From contig CP070751.1 of NCBI GenBank assembly GCA_020348445.1, positions 1,165,177 to 1,184,994 of the forward strand: a stretch of 19,818 nt of DNA. The letters are read 5' to 3'. The translations under genes were made by a program, and so were the position numbers. Below are positions 16,097 to 19,818 of this stretch, in pieces; positions within the stretch are counted from its first letter, which is position 1, and every line of letters starts with the position of its first letter. This DNA is from Thermoplasmata archaeon (GTDB lineage: Archaea; Thermoplasmatota; Thermoplasmata; GCA-020350865). The notes below the pieces were generated by a model. That model worked only from the letters and a program-made list of their open reading frames with translations, was not told the DNA's origin and did not search any database.

Positions 16097-18073
16097 ATGA
16101 GAAGAATAGGCAAAATATCGAGCATATTTATGTGTCTTTTGATGATAGCCATGGTTTTTTGTGTGGCTGTGAACGTAAGTTCGGAAGAGCCAGGTGATCC
16201 TGGACATCCGGAAGTACCACTTGTACCAGATATTGGGGATGAAGATTGGCGAGTGGAAGGTACCGGTACCTATTTTGAAATCACGGATAGCGACTACCTG
16301 AACATCACAATGACCAGCAGTGAAATAGTGCATGTGTATTTGGAATCGATACCTAAGGTAATCAGTTACAGTATCGAGTCCGAATCTATGGCAACCTGCA
16401 CAGATTTGACATTCACGGGTTTTGAAGCAAGCAAAACGTACTACAGGTATCAGGATGGCTATCTGCAGGGGGAGTTCACAACTGATGAATTAGGCTCCTA
16501 TTTCTACACCCAGGATATTACAGTTCCTCACCATATTTTCATACAGGAGACAGAATCAACAATATATATCGATCCACAAGGCAATGTAGTCCCATCAACT
16601 GCACCAATTTCTAGAGCAGGGAATATCTATACCATAACAGGCAATATTTACGAATCTATTTACATCCAAAAATCAGGAATAACACTCGATGGTAGCGGCC
16701 ATTCCGTCACGGGAAGCGGTAGCGGATACGGTATCTATGGGTCCACCGTAGATAGGATCGCTATCAAGAATGTAGTAGTGAGTGGATTCACATACGGTAT
16801 CTACCTGGATCGGTCCAACAGCAACACGATAAGCGGGAACATCATCCCTGGTAACGTCTATGGTATCTACCTGGGCCAATCAGTCAGTAATACGATAAGT
16901 GGGAATACTGTCTCAGGCAACGGCTTTGGCATCCGCCTGGCTTGGAACTCCGACAGTAATACCATAAGTGGGAACACTGTCTCGGGCAATTACTGGTACG
17001 GCATCCGCTTGTATAGTAATTCTAACTACAACACCGTAAGCGGGAACACTGTCTCAGGCAACAATCAAGGTATTTTTCTGTATAGCGAAAACAACGACAA
17101 TACGATAAGCGGGAACACCATATTAGGCAACAATAAGGAAGGCATCATCCTGGGTTATAAATCCAACGGCAACGCTATAAGCGGGAACACGGTCACTAGC
17201 AGCGGCACATACGGCATCCACCTGTATGAATTTTCCAGCGACAATACCATAAGCGGGAACACCGTCTCGGGTGGTAATTATTGCATATGGCTATTTTATT
17301 CCGACGGCAACACCGTGAGCGGGAACACTGTCTCTGGCAGTAATGTGGCAGGCATCCATGTTAGTTTCAGCATCAATAACTTTGTGAGCGGGAACACTGC
17401 CACAGGTAATAGGGACGGCATCTACTTGTCTCAAAGTACCAGCAACACAGTGAGCGGCAACATAATCTCGGGTGGCAATGATTACAGCCTCTTCATACAT
17501 TTTTCCGACAGCAATACGATCACCGGGAACACAGTATCGGACAGCATCGTTTGGGCTATCTACTTACACTATTCCAACAGCAACACCATCTATCACAACA
17601 ACTTCATCAACAACGCGAACCAGCTCTATAGAATAGGGTCCCAGAACACATGGGACAACGGTGCTGGTGAAGGTAACCACTGGAGCGACTACACCGGTCT
17701 AGATGACGGAAGCAATGGAAGGGTTGCAGGTGATGGAGTCGGGGATACCGACATTCCACATCCATACCCAGGTGGTGTAGACTGGTATCCCCTGATGGAG
17801 CCTTGGATTCCCGATCCCGTGGACGCAATAGAGCGCTTGAAGCAGTATATCGAGGATCTCGACCTTGTGAACGGTCTGAAGAACTCACTTTTATCCCAGC
17901 TGGATGCAGCTGCGAACGCCCTGGCCAACGACCAATACCACACAGCGGTGAACATCCTAAACGCTTTCATCAACCATGTGGAGGCTCTAGAGAACGCGGG
18001 CAAGCTAACCGAGGAGGAAGCAAACTTCATAATTTCGAATGCTCAGAAAATTATAGCTTTGATTGAAAGCTGA
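16097..18073 (+). CDS. Secreted right-handed parallel beta-helix (NosD/PbH1-repeat) protein with C-terminal FIMAH-like helical domain
   Basis: AGGAGG at 16083-88. Signal peptide MRRIGKISSIFMCLLMIAMVFCVAVNVSS. Twelve GI.L..S..NTISGNT coils, cap IYHNNFINN...WDNG..GNHWSDYTG.D...GDGVGD, and a C-terminal SLLSQLDAA...AVNILNAFINHVEA helical bundle. Confidence 0.9.
   Translation: MRRIGKISSIFMCLLMIAMVFCVAVNVSSEEPGDPGHPEVPLVPDIGDEDWRVEGTGTYFEITDSDYLNITMTSSEIVHVYLESIPKVISYSIESESMATCTDLTFTGFEASKTYYRYQDGYLQGEFTTDELGSYFYTQDITVPHHIFIQETESTIYIDPQGNVVPSTAPISRAGNIYTITGNIYESIYIQKSGITLDGSGHSVTGSGSGYGIYGSTVDRIAIKNVVVSGFTYGIYLDRSNSNTISGNIIPGNVYGIYLGQSVSNTISGNTVSGNGFGIRLAWNSDSNTISGNTVSGNYWYGIRLYSNSNYNTVSGNTVSGNNQGIFLYSENNDNTISGNTILGNNKEGIILGYKSNGNAISGNTVTSSGTYGIHLYEFSSDNTISGNTVSGGNYCIWLFYSDGNTVSGNTVSGSNVAGIHVSFSINNFVSGNTATGNRDGIYLSQSTSNTVSGNIISGGNDYSLFIHFSDSNTITGNTVSDSIVWAIYLHYSNSNTIYHNNFINNANQLYRIGSQNTWDNGAGEGNHWSDYTGLDDGSNGRVAGDGVGDTDIPHPYPGGVDWYPLMEPWIPDPVDAIERLKQYIEDLDLVNGLKNSLLSQLDAAANALANDQYHTAVNILNAFINHVEALENAGKLTEEEANFIISNAQKIIALIES
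16795..17610 (+). repeat. Twelve 22-24 aa beta-helix coils with nucleotide-level conservation
   Basis: AG(C/T)GGGAACAC-like scaffold recurs every ~66-72 nt. Confidence 0.85.
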
Positions 18074-18170: not shown

Positions 18171-18205
18171 GGTAGGACAAACCTATCCTACCTCTTTCAT
18201 TTTTT
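18171..18205 (+). terminator. Hairpin plus T tract downstream of the beta-helix gene
   Basis: GGTAGGA (18171-77) and TCCTACC (18186-92) with an 8-nt loop, followed by TCTTTCATTTTTT. CAAACCTAT is directly repeated at 18159 and 18178. Confidence 0.4.
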
Positions 18206-18242
18206 ACTTATTGAGACCGTTTCATGAACTCGAACTCTATAA

Positions 18243-18440
18243 CTAAAATTTCTTAGAAGTATACTCGATCACACTCTCAAATACCGCCTTCCCATCCCCA
18301 ACCCAGTCATGCTCATTTTCCCTCATCTAATCTGGAGGGGTATACTTATAAAACACTCTTTCAGGATGCGGCATCATTCCAAAGACATTACCTGCCTCGT
18401 TGCAGATTCCTGCAATGTTATAAAGGGCGCTATTGGGGTA
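18243..18440 (-). pseudogene. purQ: Decayed 3' fragment of purQ (FGAM synthase glutaminase subunit)
   Basis: The minus frame reads [68 protein letters not shown]...[12 protein letters not shown] and GDG..FES are the PurQ C-terminal motifs. There is an internal TAG at 18329-27, another stop at 18464-62, and no 5' part. Confidence 0.88.
18258..18284 (+). repeat. 27-bp exact direct repeat, copy 1 (copy 2 at 19792-19818)
   Basis: AGTATACTCGATCACACTCTCAAATAC at both sites. ATTTTTTACTTA is also shared (18199-18210 and 19768-19779). Confidence 0.97.
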
Positions 18441-18470
18441 TTTAAGATAATTTGCCAGAAATCAAGGATA

Positions 18471-18484
18471 GTAAAATTTAAATA
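18471..18484 (+). promoter_or_regulatory. Putative BRE-TATA for the ATPase gene
   Basis: GTAAAA-TTTAAATA ending 32 nt before ATG 18517, directly abutting the palindrome pair. Confidence 0.5.
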
Positions 18485-18514
18485 TAACACAAGTGTTATG
18501 TAACACTAGTGTTA
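18485..18514. repeat. 30-bp double-palindrome site, left copy
   Basis: TAACACAAGTGTTA-TG-TAACACTAGTGTTA, ending 2 nt before the ATPase ATG. Confidence 0.92.
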
Positions 18515-18516
18515 GT

Positions 18517-19713
18517 ATGAAACCTATCAAATTTTCATTCGGACGACCTGTGTCGCCAAAGCATTTTTATGACAGAGAAGCAGAGATCAATCGAATCTTA
18601 TTAAGATTATTGACAATAAAAGAAGGAGTGAAAAACGATGTGGTCCTTATTGGCCCGCGTCGTGTAGGGAAATCATCAATATTATCCTATCTAGAATGGA
18701 AATTACTTAAAAAAGAAATATTACCTATTTGTATAGATTGTGAGGGCCTTGATCTTGTTGCCTTTCTCAAGGTCTATGGAAATGCCACTATTGAAGCCCA
18801 GATAAACTCGTTAAAATTAATGAAAAAATTCGGGGAAAGACTTAAAAAAGGATTCACAGAGGCTATAAGTGTAATGTCAGAAGCGCTCGGGCGATTAAAA
18901 GCTGTTGAAGTTGGAACTTCCTTACAAGAATATTTACGATTCAGAATAGAGTTTGACAAATCCACTTTTCATAAAGTTCTTACTAATGAGGAGATTGAAA
19001 CCCTATTTGATCGAACAATTGAACTACCAAATAAATTAGATAAAAAATGTGTAGTCATGATCGATGAGTTTCAGGATACAACAATGTACTCATTTTCTCG
19101 AGGAGATTTTCATGCTAACTTTAGAAATAAAATTAAGTACCAAAAAAATGTTGCATATATATACACTGGAAGTTCTATTGGAATGATGGATGACATTTTT
19201 GCTGATCCAAAGAATCCCTTGGCTGGAGGTGCAGAGATCATTTATGTAGAACCTTTTGACAGAAAAACGAGCATTGAATTCTTAAAAACTAGATTTAATG
19301 ACGCAGGCCGAAGAATTTCTGATAATAGCGCACAATATATTTATAATAAAGTAGGAGGATTTCCTTTATATTTGAACTGGGTGGGATTGAGAGTGTGTGA
19401 TTTTGTTAGGGAAAATAATGCTGTCAAATTAAATACCATGAAAAATGTATATAGAGAGATATTATCACCGAAAAGTCCAATCTACCATATGCTCGAAAAA
19501 CAATTGATAAAACTGGGTTATAAAACTCAAAATGTTATGACCTGTTTGGCTATGGGTTATAGAAATCCTCCCGCGATTTCAAAGGAATCAAATGTAAAAA
19601 ACATCTATGTATATCTTGATAGGCTTCAGAAGTATGGTTTAGCGATAAAAAAAGATAGCCAGTATGACCTCGTTGATCCAATTTTAAAAGAATATCTAAT
19701 TAAGTATAAATAA
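18517..19713 (+). CDS. Archaeal ATPase (COG1672/ATPase_2-like P-loop NTPase) with C-terminal winged-helix domain
   Basis: FSFGRPV...FYDREAEI, Walker A GPRRVGKSS, Walker B VMIDEFQ, YTGSS, GGFPLYL, C-terminal wHTH-like PPAISKES...VYLDRLQKYGL...Y.LVDPIL. No C-terminal nuclease domain. Start ATG 18517 is preferred over GTG 18493. Confidence 0.88.
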   Translation: MKPIKFSFGRPVSPKHFYDREAEINRILLRLLTIKEGVKNDVVLIGPRRVGKSSILSYLEWKLLKKEILPICIDCEGLDLVAFLKVYGNATIEAQINSLKLMKKFGERLKKGFTEAISVMSEALGRLKAVEVGTSLQEYLRFRIEFDKSTFHKVLTNEEIETLFDRTIELPNKLDKKCVVMIDEFQDTTMYSFSRGDFHANFRNKIKYQKNVAYIYTGSSIGMMDDIFADPKNPLAGGAEIIYVEPFDRKTSIEFLKTRFNDAGRRISDNSAQYIYNKVGGFPLYLNWVGLRVCDFVRENNAVKLNTMKNVYREILSPKSPIYHMLEKQLIKLGYKTQNVMTCLAMGYRNPPAISKESNVKNIYVYLDRLQKYGLAIKKDSQYDLVDPILKEYLIKYK

Positions 19714-19718
19714 TCTAG

Positions 19719-19748
19719 TAACATCGGTGTTATATAACACTAGTGTTA
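19719..19748. repeat. 30-bp double-palindrome site, right copy
   Basis: TAACATCGGTGTTA-TA-TAACACTAGTGTTA, starting 5 nt after the ATPase stop; 26/30 identical to the left copy, same orientation. Confidence 0.92.
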
Positions 19749-19776
19749 TTTTCATAAAAAGTTATTTATTTTTTAC

Positions 19777-19818
19777 TTAGAACTTCTTGACAGTATACTC
19801 GATCACACTCTCAAATAC
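19777..19818 (-). CDS. purQ: 3' end of a gene entering from the right, probably the functional purQ
   Basis: Minus strand reads VFESVIEYTVKKF-TAA (stop 19779-77), matching the C-terminus of the purQ remnant. Only 14 codons are visible, so intactness is unknown. Confidence 0.7.
   Translation of the reverse strand, partial: VFESVIEYTVKKF

What the first reader, a model, noticed from the sequence alone, without database searches (positions are those of the whole stretch)
18485..19748. ATPase ORF bracketed almost to the base by two direct copies of a 30-bp double-palindrome: candidate new gene-cassette recombination site
Seen: TAACACAAGTGTTA-TG-TAACACTAGTGTTA ends 2 nt before the ATG, and TAACATCGGTGTTA-TA-TAACACTAGTGTTA begins 5 nt after the TAA. 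They are 26/30 identical, in the same orientation, 1234 nt apart, and I saw the motif nowhere else in the window. Each 30-mer is also an imperfect inverted repeat overall (11-bp arms around TTATGTAA/TTATATAA). Known: that arm-spacer-arm geometry is typical of tyrosine-recombinase sites, and promoterless ORFs tightly bounded by sites with an external promoter is how integron cassettes are built. The TATA lies just outside the left site. The right copy precedes no promoter (the next gene is convergent), which argues against a simple operator. Inference: recombination would excise a 1234-bp promoterless circle using a trans-acting recombinase.
Basis: partly seen in the sequence, partly recalled or inferred. 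Interest (0 to 1): 0.82.

Follow-up and report, generated by a model that had tools for sequence, protein, structure and literature searches.

The report
Mobile ATPase gene bracketed by operators
The two 30-bp double palindromes are real and conserved, but they look like binding sites for the DNA-binding ATPase encoded between them (a promoter operator plus an optional second site at the gene's 3' end), and together with the gene they form a small unit that has moved between archaeal genomes; they do not look like integron-style recombination sites.

Summary
The motif occurs nowhere else in the 5.16-Mb assembly.

The cassette interpretation is not supported.
- The TATA box sits directly against site L and travels with the gene in every relative, so the ORF is not promoterless.
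- Site L lies between TATA and ATG in all 17 subfamily members scored. Site R is missing in 5 of the 16 that could be scored.
- The cargo is always this one ATPase subfamily.
- Empty alleles in G001 and G004 keep no solo site.
- No integrase is nearby.

Half-sites TAACA(C/T)/GTGTTA are near-invariant while the central dinucleotide is free, which is the signature of a dimeric DNA-binding protein. The ATPase has an Orc1/Cdc6-like fold with a C-terminal winged helix whose putative recognition helix is conserved wherever the motif is. Paralogous PF01637 genes carry their own private 5-N4-5 palindromes at the same position.

The unit is nevertheless mobile. It occupies three different sites in four congeneric Thermoplasmata genomes, occurs in Micrarchaeota, and is more similar between genomes than housekeeping genes are. 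Two independent insertions (purQ here, purB in a Micrarchaeota contig) duplicated the target gene's 3' end. Binding was not tested, and the mechanism of movement is unknown.

The parts
18243..18440 (-). purQ 3' pseudogene fragment, about 65 codons. It forms the left copy of the direct target duplication and has an in-frame TAG at 18327-18329 where the real gene has Trp. Duplicated non-coding sequence may extend to about 18200.
   Evidence: Minus-strand translation reads ...[57 protein letters not shown]. It is 88-89% identical to the real purQ 3' end on ctg48. The same fragment is present in G003 and absent from the empty alleles of G004 and G001.
18441..18484 (+). Unit-specific left arm holding the promoter, with the TATA box aaatttaaatata at 18472-18484.
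   Evidence: Homology to purQ ends at about 18440. A TATA-like element abuts site L in all 17 members scored.
18485..18514 (.). Site L: two 14-bp palindromes (TAACAC-NN-GTGTTA) 16 bp apart, lying between the TATA box and the ATG. Proposed autoregulatory operator.
   Evidence: Conserved in the orthologues at 88%, 67% and 66% identity and in homologues at 40-50% identity. The position matrix shows invariant half-sites and a free central NN.
18517..19713 (+). 398-aa PF01637 (ATPase_2) AAA+ ATPase with a C-terminal winged helix. Walker A is GPRRVGKS and Walker B is DEFQ.
   Evidence: Pfam; alignment A1; AF2 model with pLDDT 92.4; Foldseek hits 2QEN, 2FNA, then Orc1/Cdc6-DNA complexes 2QBY and 2V1U.
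19719..19748 (.). Site R: a second double palindrome 5 nt after the stop codon. Proposed auxiliary binding site for looping or roadblock.
   Evidence: Scored present in 10 of 16 members with half-sites conserved, reduced to one palindrome plus a half-site in L060, and absent in L084, L095, L096, L099 and L101. A truncated site R also lies at the end of G004 contig C24.
19749..19769 (.). Unit-specific right arm, 21 nt.
   Evidence: It lies between site R and the start of the right duplication copy.
19770..19818 (-). Start of the right copy of the duplication, which is the 3' end of the intact purQ. The stop codon is at 19777-19779 on the minus strand. The gene continues on contig 48 (G000:C1:1515670-1522386, reverse complement) after one missing base.
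   Evidence: The joined sequence encodes purQ (276 aa) followed by purL (798 aa). The contiguous G003 contig C60 shows the same order independently.

Best explanation
The two 30-mers are pairs of dyad-symmetric protein-binding sites (5-N4-5, 16-bp phasing). The most likely binder is the protein encoded between them, a PF01637 AAA+ ATPase with an Orc1/Cdc6-like layout and a C-terminal winged helix. Site L sits between the TATA box and the ATG, on a leaderless or near-leaderless gene, so occupancy there should block pre-initiation complex or RNA polymerase recruitment, giving autorepression. Site R at the 3' end is an optional second site. It could cooperate with L through oligomerisation of the ATPase, looping out the 1.2-kb gene as lambda CI does between OL and OR or LacI between O1 and O2. 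It could also act as a bound roadblock that insulates the gene from convergent transcription.

The TATA-siteL-gene-siteR block is a self-contained single-gene unit that spreads horizontally among Thermoplasmata and Micrarchaeota. Here it lies in the 3' end of purQ, between two diverged copies of about 200 bp of that gene end.

Shown: site anatomy, conservation, exclusivity, protein fold, mobility, target duplication, empty alleles. Inferred: that the ATPase itself binds the sites, repression, looping, and how the unit moves.
For: (a) Exclusivity: the motif occurs only at this gene in G000 and exactly flanks the orthologue in G002, G003 and G004.
(b) Global scans: in genome contigs and metagenome contigs most hits lie beside homologues (40-71% aa identity) of this ATPase in Thermoplasmata, Micrarchaeota and unclassified archaea.
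(c) Site L lies between TATA and ATG in all 17 members scored, with a gap to the ATG of 2-41 nt.
(d) The matrix of 27 sites shows half-sites T-A-A-C-A-(C/T) and G-T-G-T-T-A invariant or nearly so, with the central NN and the linker free. L and R do not share their variable bases, so each is under its own purifying selection, while neighbouring intergenic DNA cannot be aligned.
(e) Protein: the AF2 model has pLDDT 92.4. The best folds are 2QEN and 2FNA, then Orc1/Cdc6 bound to origin DNA. The putative recognition helix N(V/I)KN(V/I)YVYLxRLQKYGL is near-invariant in motif-bearing members and different in the outgroup paralogues P0024 and P0025.
(f) Family pattern: other PF01637 genes of the same genome carry their own palindromes of the same design just before the ATG, namely ATACC-N4-GGTAT three times, TTACC-N4-GGTAA twice, and AGTTTATAAACT. 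Five of 11 PF01637 genes have a palindrome with arms of 7 bp or more within 35 nt of the ATG, against 3.2% (90 nt) and 1.2% (45 nt) of 1555 control genes.
(g) Mobility: three contexts in four congeners with empty alleles. Module identity is 84% and 87%, against 74-76% for purL/purQ in the same genome pairs. The module is absent from G001, the closest relative by purL/purQ at 83%.
(h) Target duplication: about 200 bp of the purQ 3' end here and in G003, and independently 58 bp of the purB 3' end in L060.
Against: Site R has no promoter to regulate, so its role is speculative, and it is dispensable in 5 of 16 members. Paralogues show no downstream copy of their palindromes, so bracketing is peculiar to this subfamily and the operator idea alone does not explain it. 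A Micrarchaeota locus (L080, L088, L056) has the same double palindrome near an ATPase of a different family (AAA_14/DUF4143), with no subfamily member in the contig stretch held. A Nitrosopumilus PF01637 gene with a different winged helix has a very similar repeat. The motif-protein link is therefore not strictly one to one. C-to-T variants at position 6 are commoner (11 of 54 palindromes) than the mirror G-to-A at position 9 (3 of 54). This strand asymmetry is not predicted by simple dimer binding to duplex DNA.
Confidence: 0.6

Rival explanations
1. One reading: L and R are core sites of a trans-acting tyrosine recombinase. L x R recombination excises a promoterless 1234-bp circle that is captured at other sites, as with integron cassettes.
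For: The direct repeats tightly bracket one ORF. Each 30-mer can be read as roughly 11-13-bp inverted arms around a short spacer. The unit occupies different sites in relatives and empty alleles exist.
Against: The promoter TATA lies outside L yet moves with the gene. Transferred sequence extends beyond both sites. Insertion junctions lie 21-44 nt outside the sites and are flanked by long target duplications (58 and about 200 bp), not by sites. Five genomes hold no solo site at empty alleles or anywhere else. The only cargo is this one ATPase subfamily, and there are no arrays. R is missing in 5 of 16 members. No integrase is adjacent, and the assembly holds only two distant PF00589 fragments.
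Confidence: 0.06
2. Minimal integrated replicon: the Orc1/Cdc6-like ATPase is an initiator and the palindrome pairs are its ORB- or iteron-like origin sites. Recombination between the flanking target repeats releases a circle (unit plus one repeat copy) that can replicate and re-integrate by homologous recombination, Campbell-style.
For: The fold is closest, after the PF01637 structures, to Orc1/Cdc6 bound to origin DNA. Repeated binding sites lie next to the gene, with arrays at 16-bp period in L061 and 9-bp TAACACTAC repeats in L067. The T-unit-T topology is exactly what a single crossover of a circle carrying T would give. The two purQ copies do recombine: the stop-proximal ~75 nt are homogenised within each genome. 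Empty alleles are scarless, as repeat-mediated excision predicts. The unit spreads faster than housekeeping genes.
Against: No AT-rich unwinding element lies between inverted sites. The sites flank a 1.2-kb ORF rather than a DUE. There are no Pfam Cdc6 or Orc hits. PF01637 proteins are not known initiators. Only 2 of about 10 contexts show target repeats. No circular or plasmid-borne copy was seen among the contigs recovered.
Confidence: 0.1
3. The sites are bound by another, unlinked host transcription factor, and the ATPase is simply its only target.
For: Binding by the ATPase is untested. Similar sequences serve as ordinary operators elsewhere, for example upstream of an ArsR-like gene in L083.
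Against: The sites travel with the gene across phyla and into new genomes, so an unlinked factor would have to be present in each recipient. The motif has no other copy in any of the five genomes. Paralogues have private palindromes, which fits self-recognition.
Confidence: 0.1
4. The palindromes act as single-strand hairpins, either as subterminal hairpins of an IS200/IS605-like element mobilised in trans or as an RNA terminator or stability hairpin at the 3' end.
For: The 30-mers fold at -9.7 to -11.2 kcal/mol, z -2.7 to -4.0. In G000 site R is followed by TTTT. The C-to-T excess at position 6 keeps G-T/G-U pairing on the sense strand only.
Against: The central positions vary without any need for compensation, because each arm is itself conserved in sequence, so sequence rather than pairing is what is conserved. 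Site L lies mostly upstream of the likely transcription start. No T-run follows R in the other lineages. Long target duplications are not a feature of IS200/IS605. There is no Rfam hit.
Confidence: 0.05

Closest known systems
Autoregulated repressor genes with a promoter operator plus a distal auxiliary operator (lambda CI with OR/OL flanking the cI region; lac O1/O2; gal OE/OI). Comparison from general knowledge.
   Same: Pairs of dyad-symmetric sites at fixed phasing overlap the core promoter of the regulator's own gene. A second similar cluster lies about 1.2 kb away on the far side of the gene, and both are under selection.
   Different: The putative regulator is a 398-aa AAA+ ATPase with one C-terminal winged helix, not a small repressor. 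The system is archaeal (TATA/TFB promoter, leaderless gene). No target other than itself is evident. The distal site is optional. The whole unit is horizontally mobile.
Archaeal Orc1/Cdc6 initiators with ORB elements (PDB 2QBY, 2V1U)
   Same: The same three-part architecture (AAA+ base, lid, C-terminal winged helix) ranks directly after the PF01637 structures in the fold search. Repeated sequence-specific sites lie next to the gene.
   Different: No significant sequence match to Cdc6 or Orc Pfam models. The sites are short perfect palindromes, not ORB or mini-ORB. They flank the ORF rather than an AT-rich unwinding element. Site L is positioned as an operator.
PF01637 'archaeal ATPase' proteins of unknown function (PABY2304, PDB 2QEN; SSO1545, PDB 2FNA)
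   Same: Family membership by Pfam and by sequence and structure search.
   Different: I found no functional description, and no report of cognate DNA sites, in the papers searched. This subfamily is small (about 23 clusters at 42% identity or more in 5.8 billion proteins) and uniquely carries the site at both gene ends.
STAND/AAA+ transcription factors (MalT; mycobacterial IniR, whose ATPase domain was modelled on SSO1545; PMC5760070)
   Same: An NTPase of the same structural class is coupled to a DNA-binding domain and used as a ligand- or ATP-dependent transcription regulator. MalT appears among the fold hits.
   Different: Those proteins are much larger, carry sensor repeats and LuxR-type HTH domains, and regulate other operons. 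This one has no sensor domain and no evident regulon.
Integron gene cassettes (attC/attI, IntI)
   Same: A single ORF tightly bounded by imperfect palindromes, found in different genomic places.
   Different: Own promoter, sites at both ends, one cargo family only, no arrays, no integrase, no residual site at empty alleles, and junctions outside the sites (see membership test).

Membership tests
Integron-type gene cassette | Adjacent integron integrase (tyrosine recombinase) with attI and a Pc promoter | tested here: not met
   None of the nine neighbouring window ORFs scanned is a recombinase. PF00589 gives only two short fragments in the assembly, at C1:1864225 and C1:2412539, both far from the locus.
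Integron-type gene cassette | Promoterless ORF expressed from an external promoter | tested here: not met
   A TATA box abuts site L in all 17 members scored and moves with the gene into each new context.
Integron-type gene cassette | The same site type bounds many different cargo genes, usually in arrays | tested here: not met
   There are two copies per genome, both at this gene. In global scans the motif accompanies this ATPase subfamily. The exceptions are solo or bacterial operator-like hits and one AAA_14 ATPase locus.
Integron-type gene cassette | Excision leaves a single recombined site, and insertion happens at a pre-existing site | tested here: not met
   The empty purQ alleles of G004 and G001 carry no motif. 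Pattern scans of G000-G004 found no solo site anywhere in those genomes, which covers the empty alleles of the G002 context as well. Insertion junctions lie 21-44 nt outside the sites.
Tyrosine-recombinase core site (XerA/dif-like) | Two roughly 11-bp inverted arms around a 6-8-bp spacer, recombined by a cognate recombinase | tested here: inconclusive
   The 30-mer can be drawn that way. However, conservation follows two independent 14-bp 5-N4-5 palindromes, with variable positions at 7-8 and 23-24 and the linker at 15-16, not one arm-spacer-arm unit. Recombination itself cannot be tested with these tools.
PF01637 ATPase_2 (archaeal AAA+ ATPase) | Pfam model above the gathering score; Walker A and Walker B motifs; fold like 2QEN and 2FNA | tested here: met
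   67.7 bits against a cut-off of 33.2. GPRRVGKS and DEFQ are invariant. phmmer against the PDB gives 2QEN at 5.4e-14 and 2FNA at 7.1e-12. Foldseek gives TM 0.63-0.71 to 2QEN.
Orc1/Cdc6 replication initiator | Sequence membership (Cdc6/Orc AAA+ and Cdc6_C models) and ORB sites around an AT-rich unwinding element | tested here: not met
   Only the architecture matches. There is no Pfam Cdc6 hit, ORC4 scores only E 0.08, and the sites flank an ORF.
Self-operator (autoregulated DNA-binding protein) | Dyad-symmetric site overlapping the gene's own core promoter, and a DNA-binding domain in the product | tested here: met
   Site L lies between the TATA box and the ATG in all members. The winged helix is modelled at pLDDT above 90, and its recognition helix is conserved together with the motif.
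Self-operator (autoregulated DNA-binding protein) | The product binds the site and represses its own transcription | not testable with these tools

The most novel reading that the evidence does not exclude
The TATA-site-gene-site block is an autonomous minimal mobile element of archaea. In this reading, an Orc1/Cdc6-like ATPase recognises its own flanking sites and promotes its own maintenance or movement, for example by replicating as a roughly 1.5-kb circle released by recombination between target repeats and re-integrating at conserved gene 3' ends. It would be exchanged between Thermoplasmata and Micrarchaeota. From general knowledge, some Micrarchaeota live as episymbionts on Thermoplasmata hosts, which would give a route for such exchange; no such relationship was tested for these MAGs.
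Probability: 0.12. Interest if true: 0.85.

Novelty: new variant of a known kind. Interest (0 to 1): 0.55.

Why it matters
PF01637 'archaeal ATPases' are a large, multi-paralogue family (Pfam's description, recalled from memory, gives sixteen members in Methanocaldococcus jannaschii). I found no function for them in the papers searched. This analysis gives a concrete and cheap hypothesis: each paralogue is a sequence-specific DNA-binding ATPase that recognises a private 5-N4-5 palindrome at its own promoter. For this subfamily the exact site is known (TAACAY-NN-GTGTTA, paired at 16 bp), which makes EMSA, footprinting and structural work directly possible. The case also documents a single-gene unit moving among Thermoplasmata genomes and occurring in Micrarchaeota. 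It shows an unusual insertion signature, a long duplication of the 3' end of a housekeeping gene at two independent insertions, for which no mechanism is established. For the scan itself, it is a caution that tight bracketing by palindromes does not indicate a cassette recombination site.

Tried and rejected
- Regulon idea: rejected, because the motif has no other copy in G000 or in four congeners.
- Assembly artefact (contig looping through a repeat): rejected. The window does end inside the repeat and joins ctg48 with one base missing, but the contiguous G003 contig C60 shows the same purL-purQ / siteR-ATPase-siteL / pseudo-purQ / purC order.
- Target duplication as a general signature: flank-against-flank BLAST found repeats only for G000/G003 and L060. 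There were none for G002, L063, L067, L070, L081, L097, L098 or L100.
- Concerted evolution of L and R: not seen, since their variable bases differ within genomes.
- Known RNA family at the sites: none.
- Defence-system libraries: only weak hits (PADLOC PDC-S01 at 1e-7; NCBIfam far below cut-offs), so no assignment was made.
- Literature: searches for PF01637, COG1672, DUF234, PABY2304/SSO1545, and archaeal ATPase with winged helix, autoregulation and palindrome found no description of such sites. The word-start match on DUF234 mostly returned DUF2345 papers. The SSO1545 structure paper (PMC2692486) is not held.
- The 125 bp that G002 and G004 share right of site R: it looks like a decayed coding fragment on the minus strand (my own reading of the frames), but I could not identify a source gene. 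Part of the extra G002 flank is a short repeat found on several G002 contigs.
Full report
OBSERVATION. The sequence is as described. Site L (18485-18514) ends 2 nt before the ATG at 18517. Site R (19719-19748) starts 5 nt after the TAA at 19711-19713. The two are 26/30 identical, in direct orientation, 1234 nt apart. The 14-mer pattern gives 9 strand-hits in the window against 0.2 expected. In the whole 5.16-Mb assembly it occurs only here. The ORF encodes a 398-aa PF01637 (ATPase_2) protein.

The 'genome' is 354 contigs joined by runs of 100 N, and the window is one whole contig. Its last 49 bases repeat sequence at roughly 18200-18284. A second contig (ctg48) abuts the window end with one base missing and carries intact purQ-purL. 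The DNA left of site L (18243-18440, minus strand) is a purQ 3' pseudogene of about 65 codons. It is 88-89% identical to the real gene end and has an in-frame TAG where the real gene has Trp.

The locus therefore reads, left to right:
- a NosD-like gene,
- pseudo-purQ (duplication copy 1),
- a 44-nt arm with the TATA box,
- site L, the ATPase gene, site R,
- a 21-nt arm,
- purQ (duplication copy 2), then purL.

The arrangement is not an assembly artefact, because contig C60 of the congener G003 carries the same order contiguously.

RELATIVES. Record titles show that the host is an uncultured Thermoplasmata lineage. Three of four same-genus genomes have an orthologue: G003 at 88%, G004 at 67% and G002 at 66% amino-acid identity. 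In each, the double palindrome occurs only at the ends of that gene. G004's site R is cut by a contig end.

The conserved block begins at the TATA box directly left of site L and ends at site R. Beyond that, G000/G003, G002 and G004 share nothing on the left. Only G002 and G004 share about 125 nt on the right.

The block sits in three different chromosomal contexts:
- G000 and G003: the purQ 3' end.
- G002: between a membrane-protein gene and the L18e/L13/S9 operon.
- G004: between an amidohydrolase gene and a variable stretch of about 6 kb.

Empty alleles exist for each context. The purQ-purC interval is empty in G004 and G001, with no pseudo-purQ and no solo palindrome there. The G002 interval is empty in G000, G001, G003 and G004, and pattern scans found no solo site anywhere in these genomes.

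Module nucleotide identity is 84% for G000-G003 and 87% for G002-G004. For the same pairs purL/purQ is 74-76% identical. G001, the closest relative of G000 by purL/purQ (83%), lacks the module. The unit has therefore spread horizontally within the genus.

WIDER DISTRIBUTION. Exact-pattern scans of 185,579 species genomes and of JGI metagenome contigs returned 13 and 22 loci. Most lie next to a 40-71% identical homologue of this ATPase in Thermoplasmata, Micrarchaeota and unclassified archaea. The subfamily is small, with about 23 clusters at 42% identity or more among 5.8 billion proteins.

Across the 17 members scored, including seven fetched by protein identity regardless of motif, site L is always present between a TATA-like element and the start codon. 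Site R scores as present in 10 of the 16 that could be scored. It is reduced to one palindrome plus a half-site in L060 and absent in L084, L095, L096, L099 and L101. In the Micrarchaeota-type genes the stop codon TAA is the first three bases of site R, and an extra GTGTTA half-site follows both L and R.

The remaining pattern hits fall into four groups:
- bacterial operator-like or chance sites, for example upstream of an ArsR-like gene (L083);
- an unrelated GC-rich repeat in one Lentisphaerae MAG;
- a Nitrosopumilus array of at least four TAACACAAATGTTA units at 16-bp period, directly upstream of another PF01637 gene;
- a Micrarchaeota locus where an AAA_14/DUF4143 ATPase lies between trpB and trpA with the double palindrome downstream.

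WHAT THE SITES ARE. A matrix of 27 sites shows T-A-A-C-A-(C/T) and G-T-G-T-T-A invariant or nearly so. The central dinucleotide and the 2-nt linker vary freely. L and R in one genome do not share their variable bases. This is the signature of two dimers of a helix-turn-helix-type protein on adjacent 14-bp dyads, 16 bp centre to centre, with each site separately under selection.

The protein model is confident (pLDDT 92.4). Its best structural matches are the two uncharacterised PF01637 structures (2QEN, 2FNA). Next come archaeal Orc1/Cdc6 bound to origin DNA (2QBY, 2V1U), which have the same AAA+ base, lid and C-terminal winged helix. In alignment A1 the putative recognition helix N(V/I)KN(V/I)YVYLxRLQKYGL is almost invariant in all motif-bearing members down to 40% identity. 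It differs in the two outgroup paralogues.

Other PF01637 genes of the same genome carry their own palindromes of the same 5-N4-5 design immediately before the ATG: ATACC-N4-GGTAT three times, TTACC-N4-GGTAA twice, and AGTTTATAAACT. Five of 11 PF01637 genes have a palindrome with arms of 7 bp or more within 35 nt of the start. Among 1555 control genes the figures are 3.2% within 90 nt and 1.2% within 45 nt. Start codons of some paralogues are uncertain, which makes this count conservative.

The simplest reading is that these ATPases bind their own promoters. Site L, lying between the TATA box and a leaderless or near-leaderless start, is placed where an archaeal repressor would sit.

Its half-sites are nevertheless conserved where it is present, whereas neighbouring intergenic DNA cannot be aligned at the same divergence. 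It is therefore functional but optional. I propose cooperative binding with L through ATPase oligomerisation (a loop over the gene, as with lambda OL/OR or lac O1/O2), a protein roadblock against convergent read-in, or both. This part is inference.

WHY NOT A CASSETTE SITE.
- The promoter moves with the gene.
- Co-transferred sequence and insertion junctions lie outside the sites.
- Empty alleles keep no site.
- There is one cargo family only, with no arrays.
- R is dispensable.
- No recombinase is near.

Each of these is a defining feature of integron-type cassettes that was tested and not met.

HOW IT MOVES is not settled. Two independent insertions carry a direct duplication of the 3' end of a housekeeping gene. 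One is about 200 bp of purQ here and in G003. The other is the last 14 codons plus stop of purB, 58 bp, in Micrarchaeota contig L060. In both, one copy stays joined to the intact gene and the other is a decaying fragment.

In G000 and G003 the stop-proximal ~75 nt are identical within each genome but differ between genomes, while the distal part groups left copy with left copy. So the duplication predates their split (or was transferred as a whole), and the copies still recombine. This T-unit-T topology is what a single crossover of a circle carrying T would produce. Recombination between the copies would also excise the unit without a scar, which matches the clean empty alleles. Other contexts show no detectable repeats, so I treat this as a lead rather than a mechanism.

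The more adventurous reading is an Orc1-like protein with iteron-like sites forming a minimal excisable replicon. It is not excluded, and I give it about 0.1.

VERDICT. The mobile-unit idea is supported in a broad sense, and the recombination-site mechanism is not. The best explanation (confidence 0.6) is a self-operator pair belonging to a horizontally mobile, single-gene PF01637 ATPase unit. The main value of the finding is the testable hypothesis it gives for a large archaeal protein family of unknown function.

Noticed in passing
window 19770-19818 and G000:C1:1515670-1522386 (ctg48): The window is a complete contig that breaks inside the purQ duplication. ctg48 continues it after one missing base and carries purQ, purL, an AAA_14/DUF4143-type ATPase (413 aa) and a repeat-rich protein.
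   Followed up: yes
L061:4738-4830 (Nitrosopumilus MAG OZ240211.1): A tandem array of at least four near-identical TAACACAAATGTTA units at 16-bp period lies directly upstream of a PF01637 gene (295 aa, E 4.5e-8). That gene's C-terminal part differs from the subfamily studied here.
   Followed up: partly
L080:2489-3976 (also L088 and L056; Micrarchaeota): An AAA_14+DUF4143 ATPase sits between trpB and trpA. The same double palindrome, preceded by a TATA-like ttaaatttac, lies 170 nt downstream of it with no subfamily gene attached. It could be a relic 'promoter plus site L' of a lost unit or a site shared between ATPase families.
   Followed up: partly
L067:2443-2568: Between the stop codon and site R there is a run of many tandem 9-bp repeats, TAACACTAC, which are half-site-containing units.
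   Followed up: no
L058:4074-4688 (Thermoplasmata MAG CBDVCJ010000174.1): An internally deleted copy: site L and roughly the first 20 codons are joined to residues from about 221 onward, so the Walker motifs are lost. No site R was detected.
   Followed up: partly
all sites (matrix): There is a strand asymmetry. Position 6 of the palindromes is T instead of C in 11 of 54 cases, whereas the mirror position 9 is A instead of G in only 3. This keeps G-T/G-U pairing on the sense strand only and is unexplained by simple duplex dimer binding.
   Followed up: no
L023:3471-3565 and L024:1317-1560: Short sequences next to the unit in G002 and G004 recur on several other G002 contigs (C115, C224, C55, C248, C183, C130), some on both strands. 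They look like small MITE-like repeats.
   Followed up: no
L096:835-4188: In one member's contig, the unit lies about 1.1 kb downstream of a bona fide Orc1/Cdc6 gene (Cdc6_lid) and near an RFC-like gene. This may be coincidence.
   Followed up: no
L054, L055, L066 (Lentisphaerae MAG MHBK01): A GC-rich repeat, GAACACCGGTGTCA, occurs in tandem next to a conserved ggcatagacaatagac sequence at several loci. It is an unrelated repeat family that happened to match the degenerate pattern.
   Followed up: no
window 16097-18073: A NosD/beta-helix surface protein gene lies between purC and the purQ region in G000, and a 902-aa counterpart does so in G001. It is absent there in G003 and G004, so this interval is variable independently of the ATPase unit.
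   Followed up: partly
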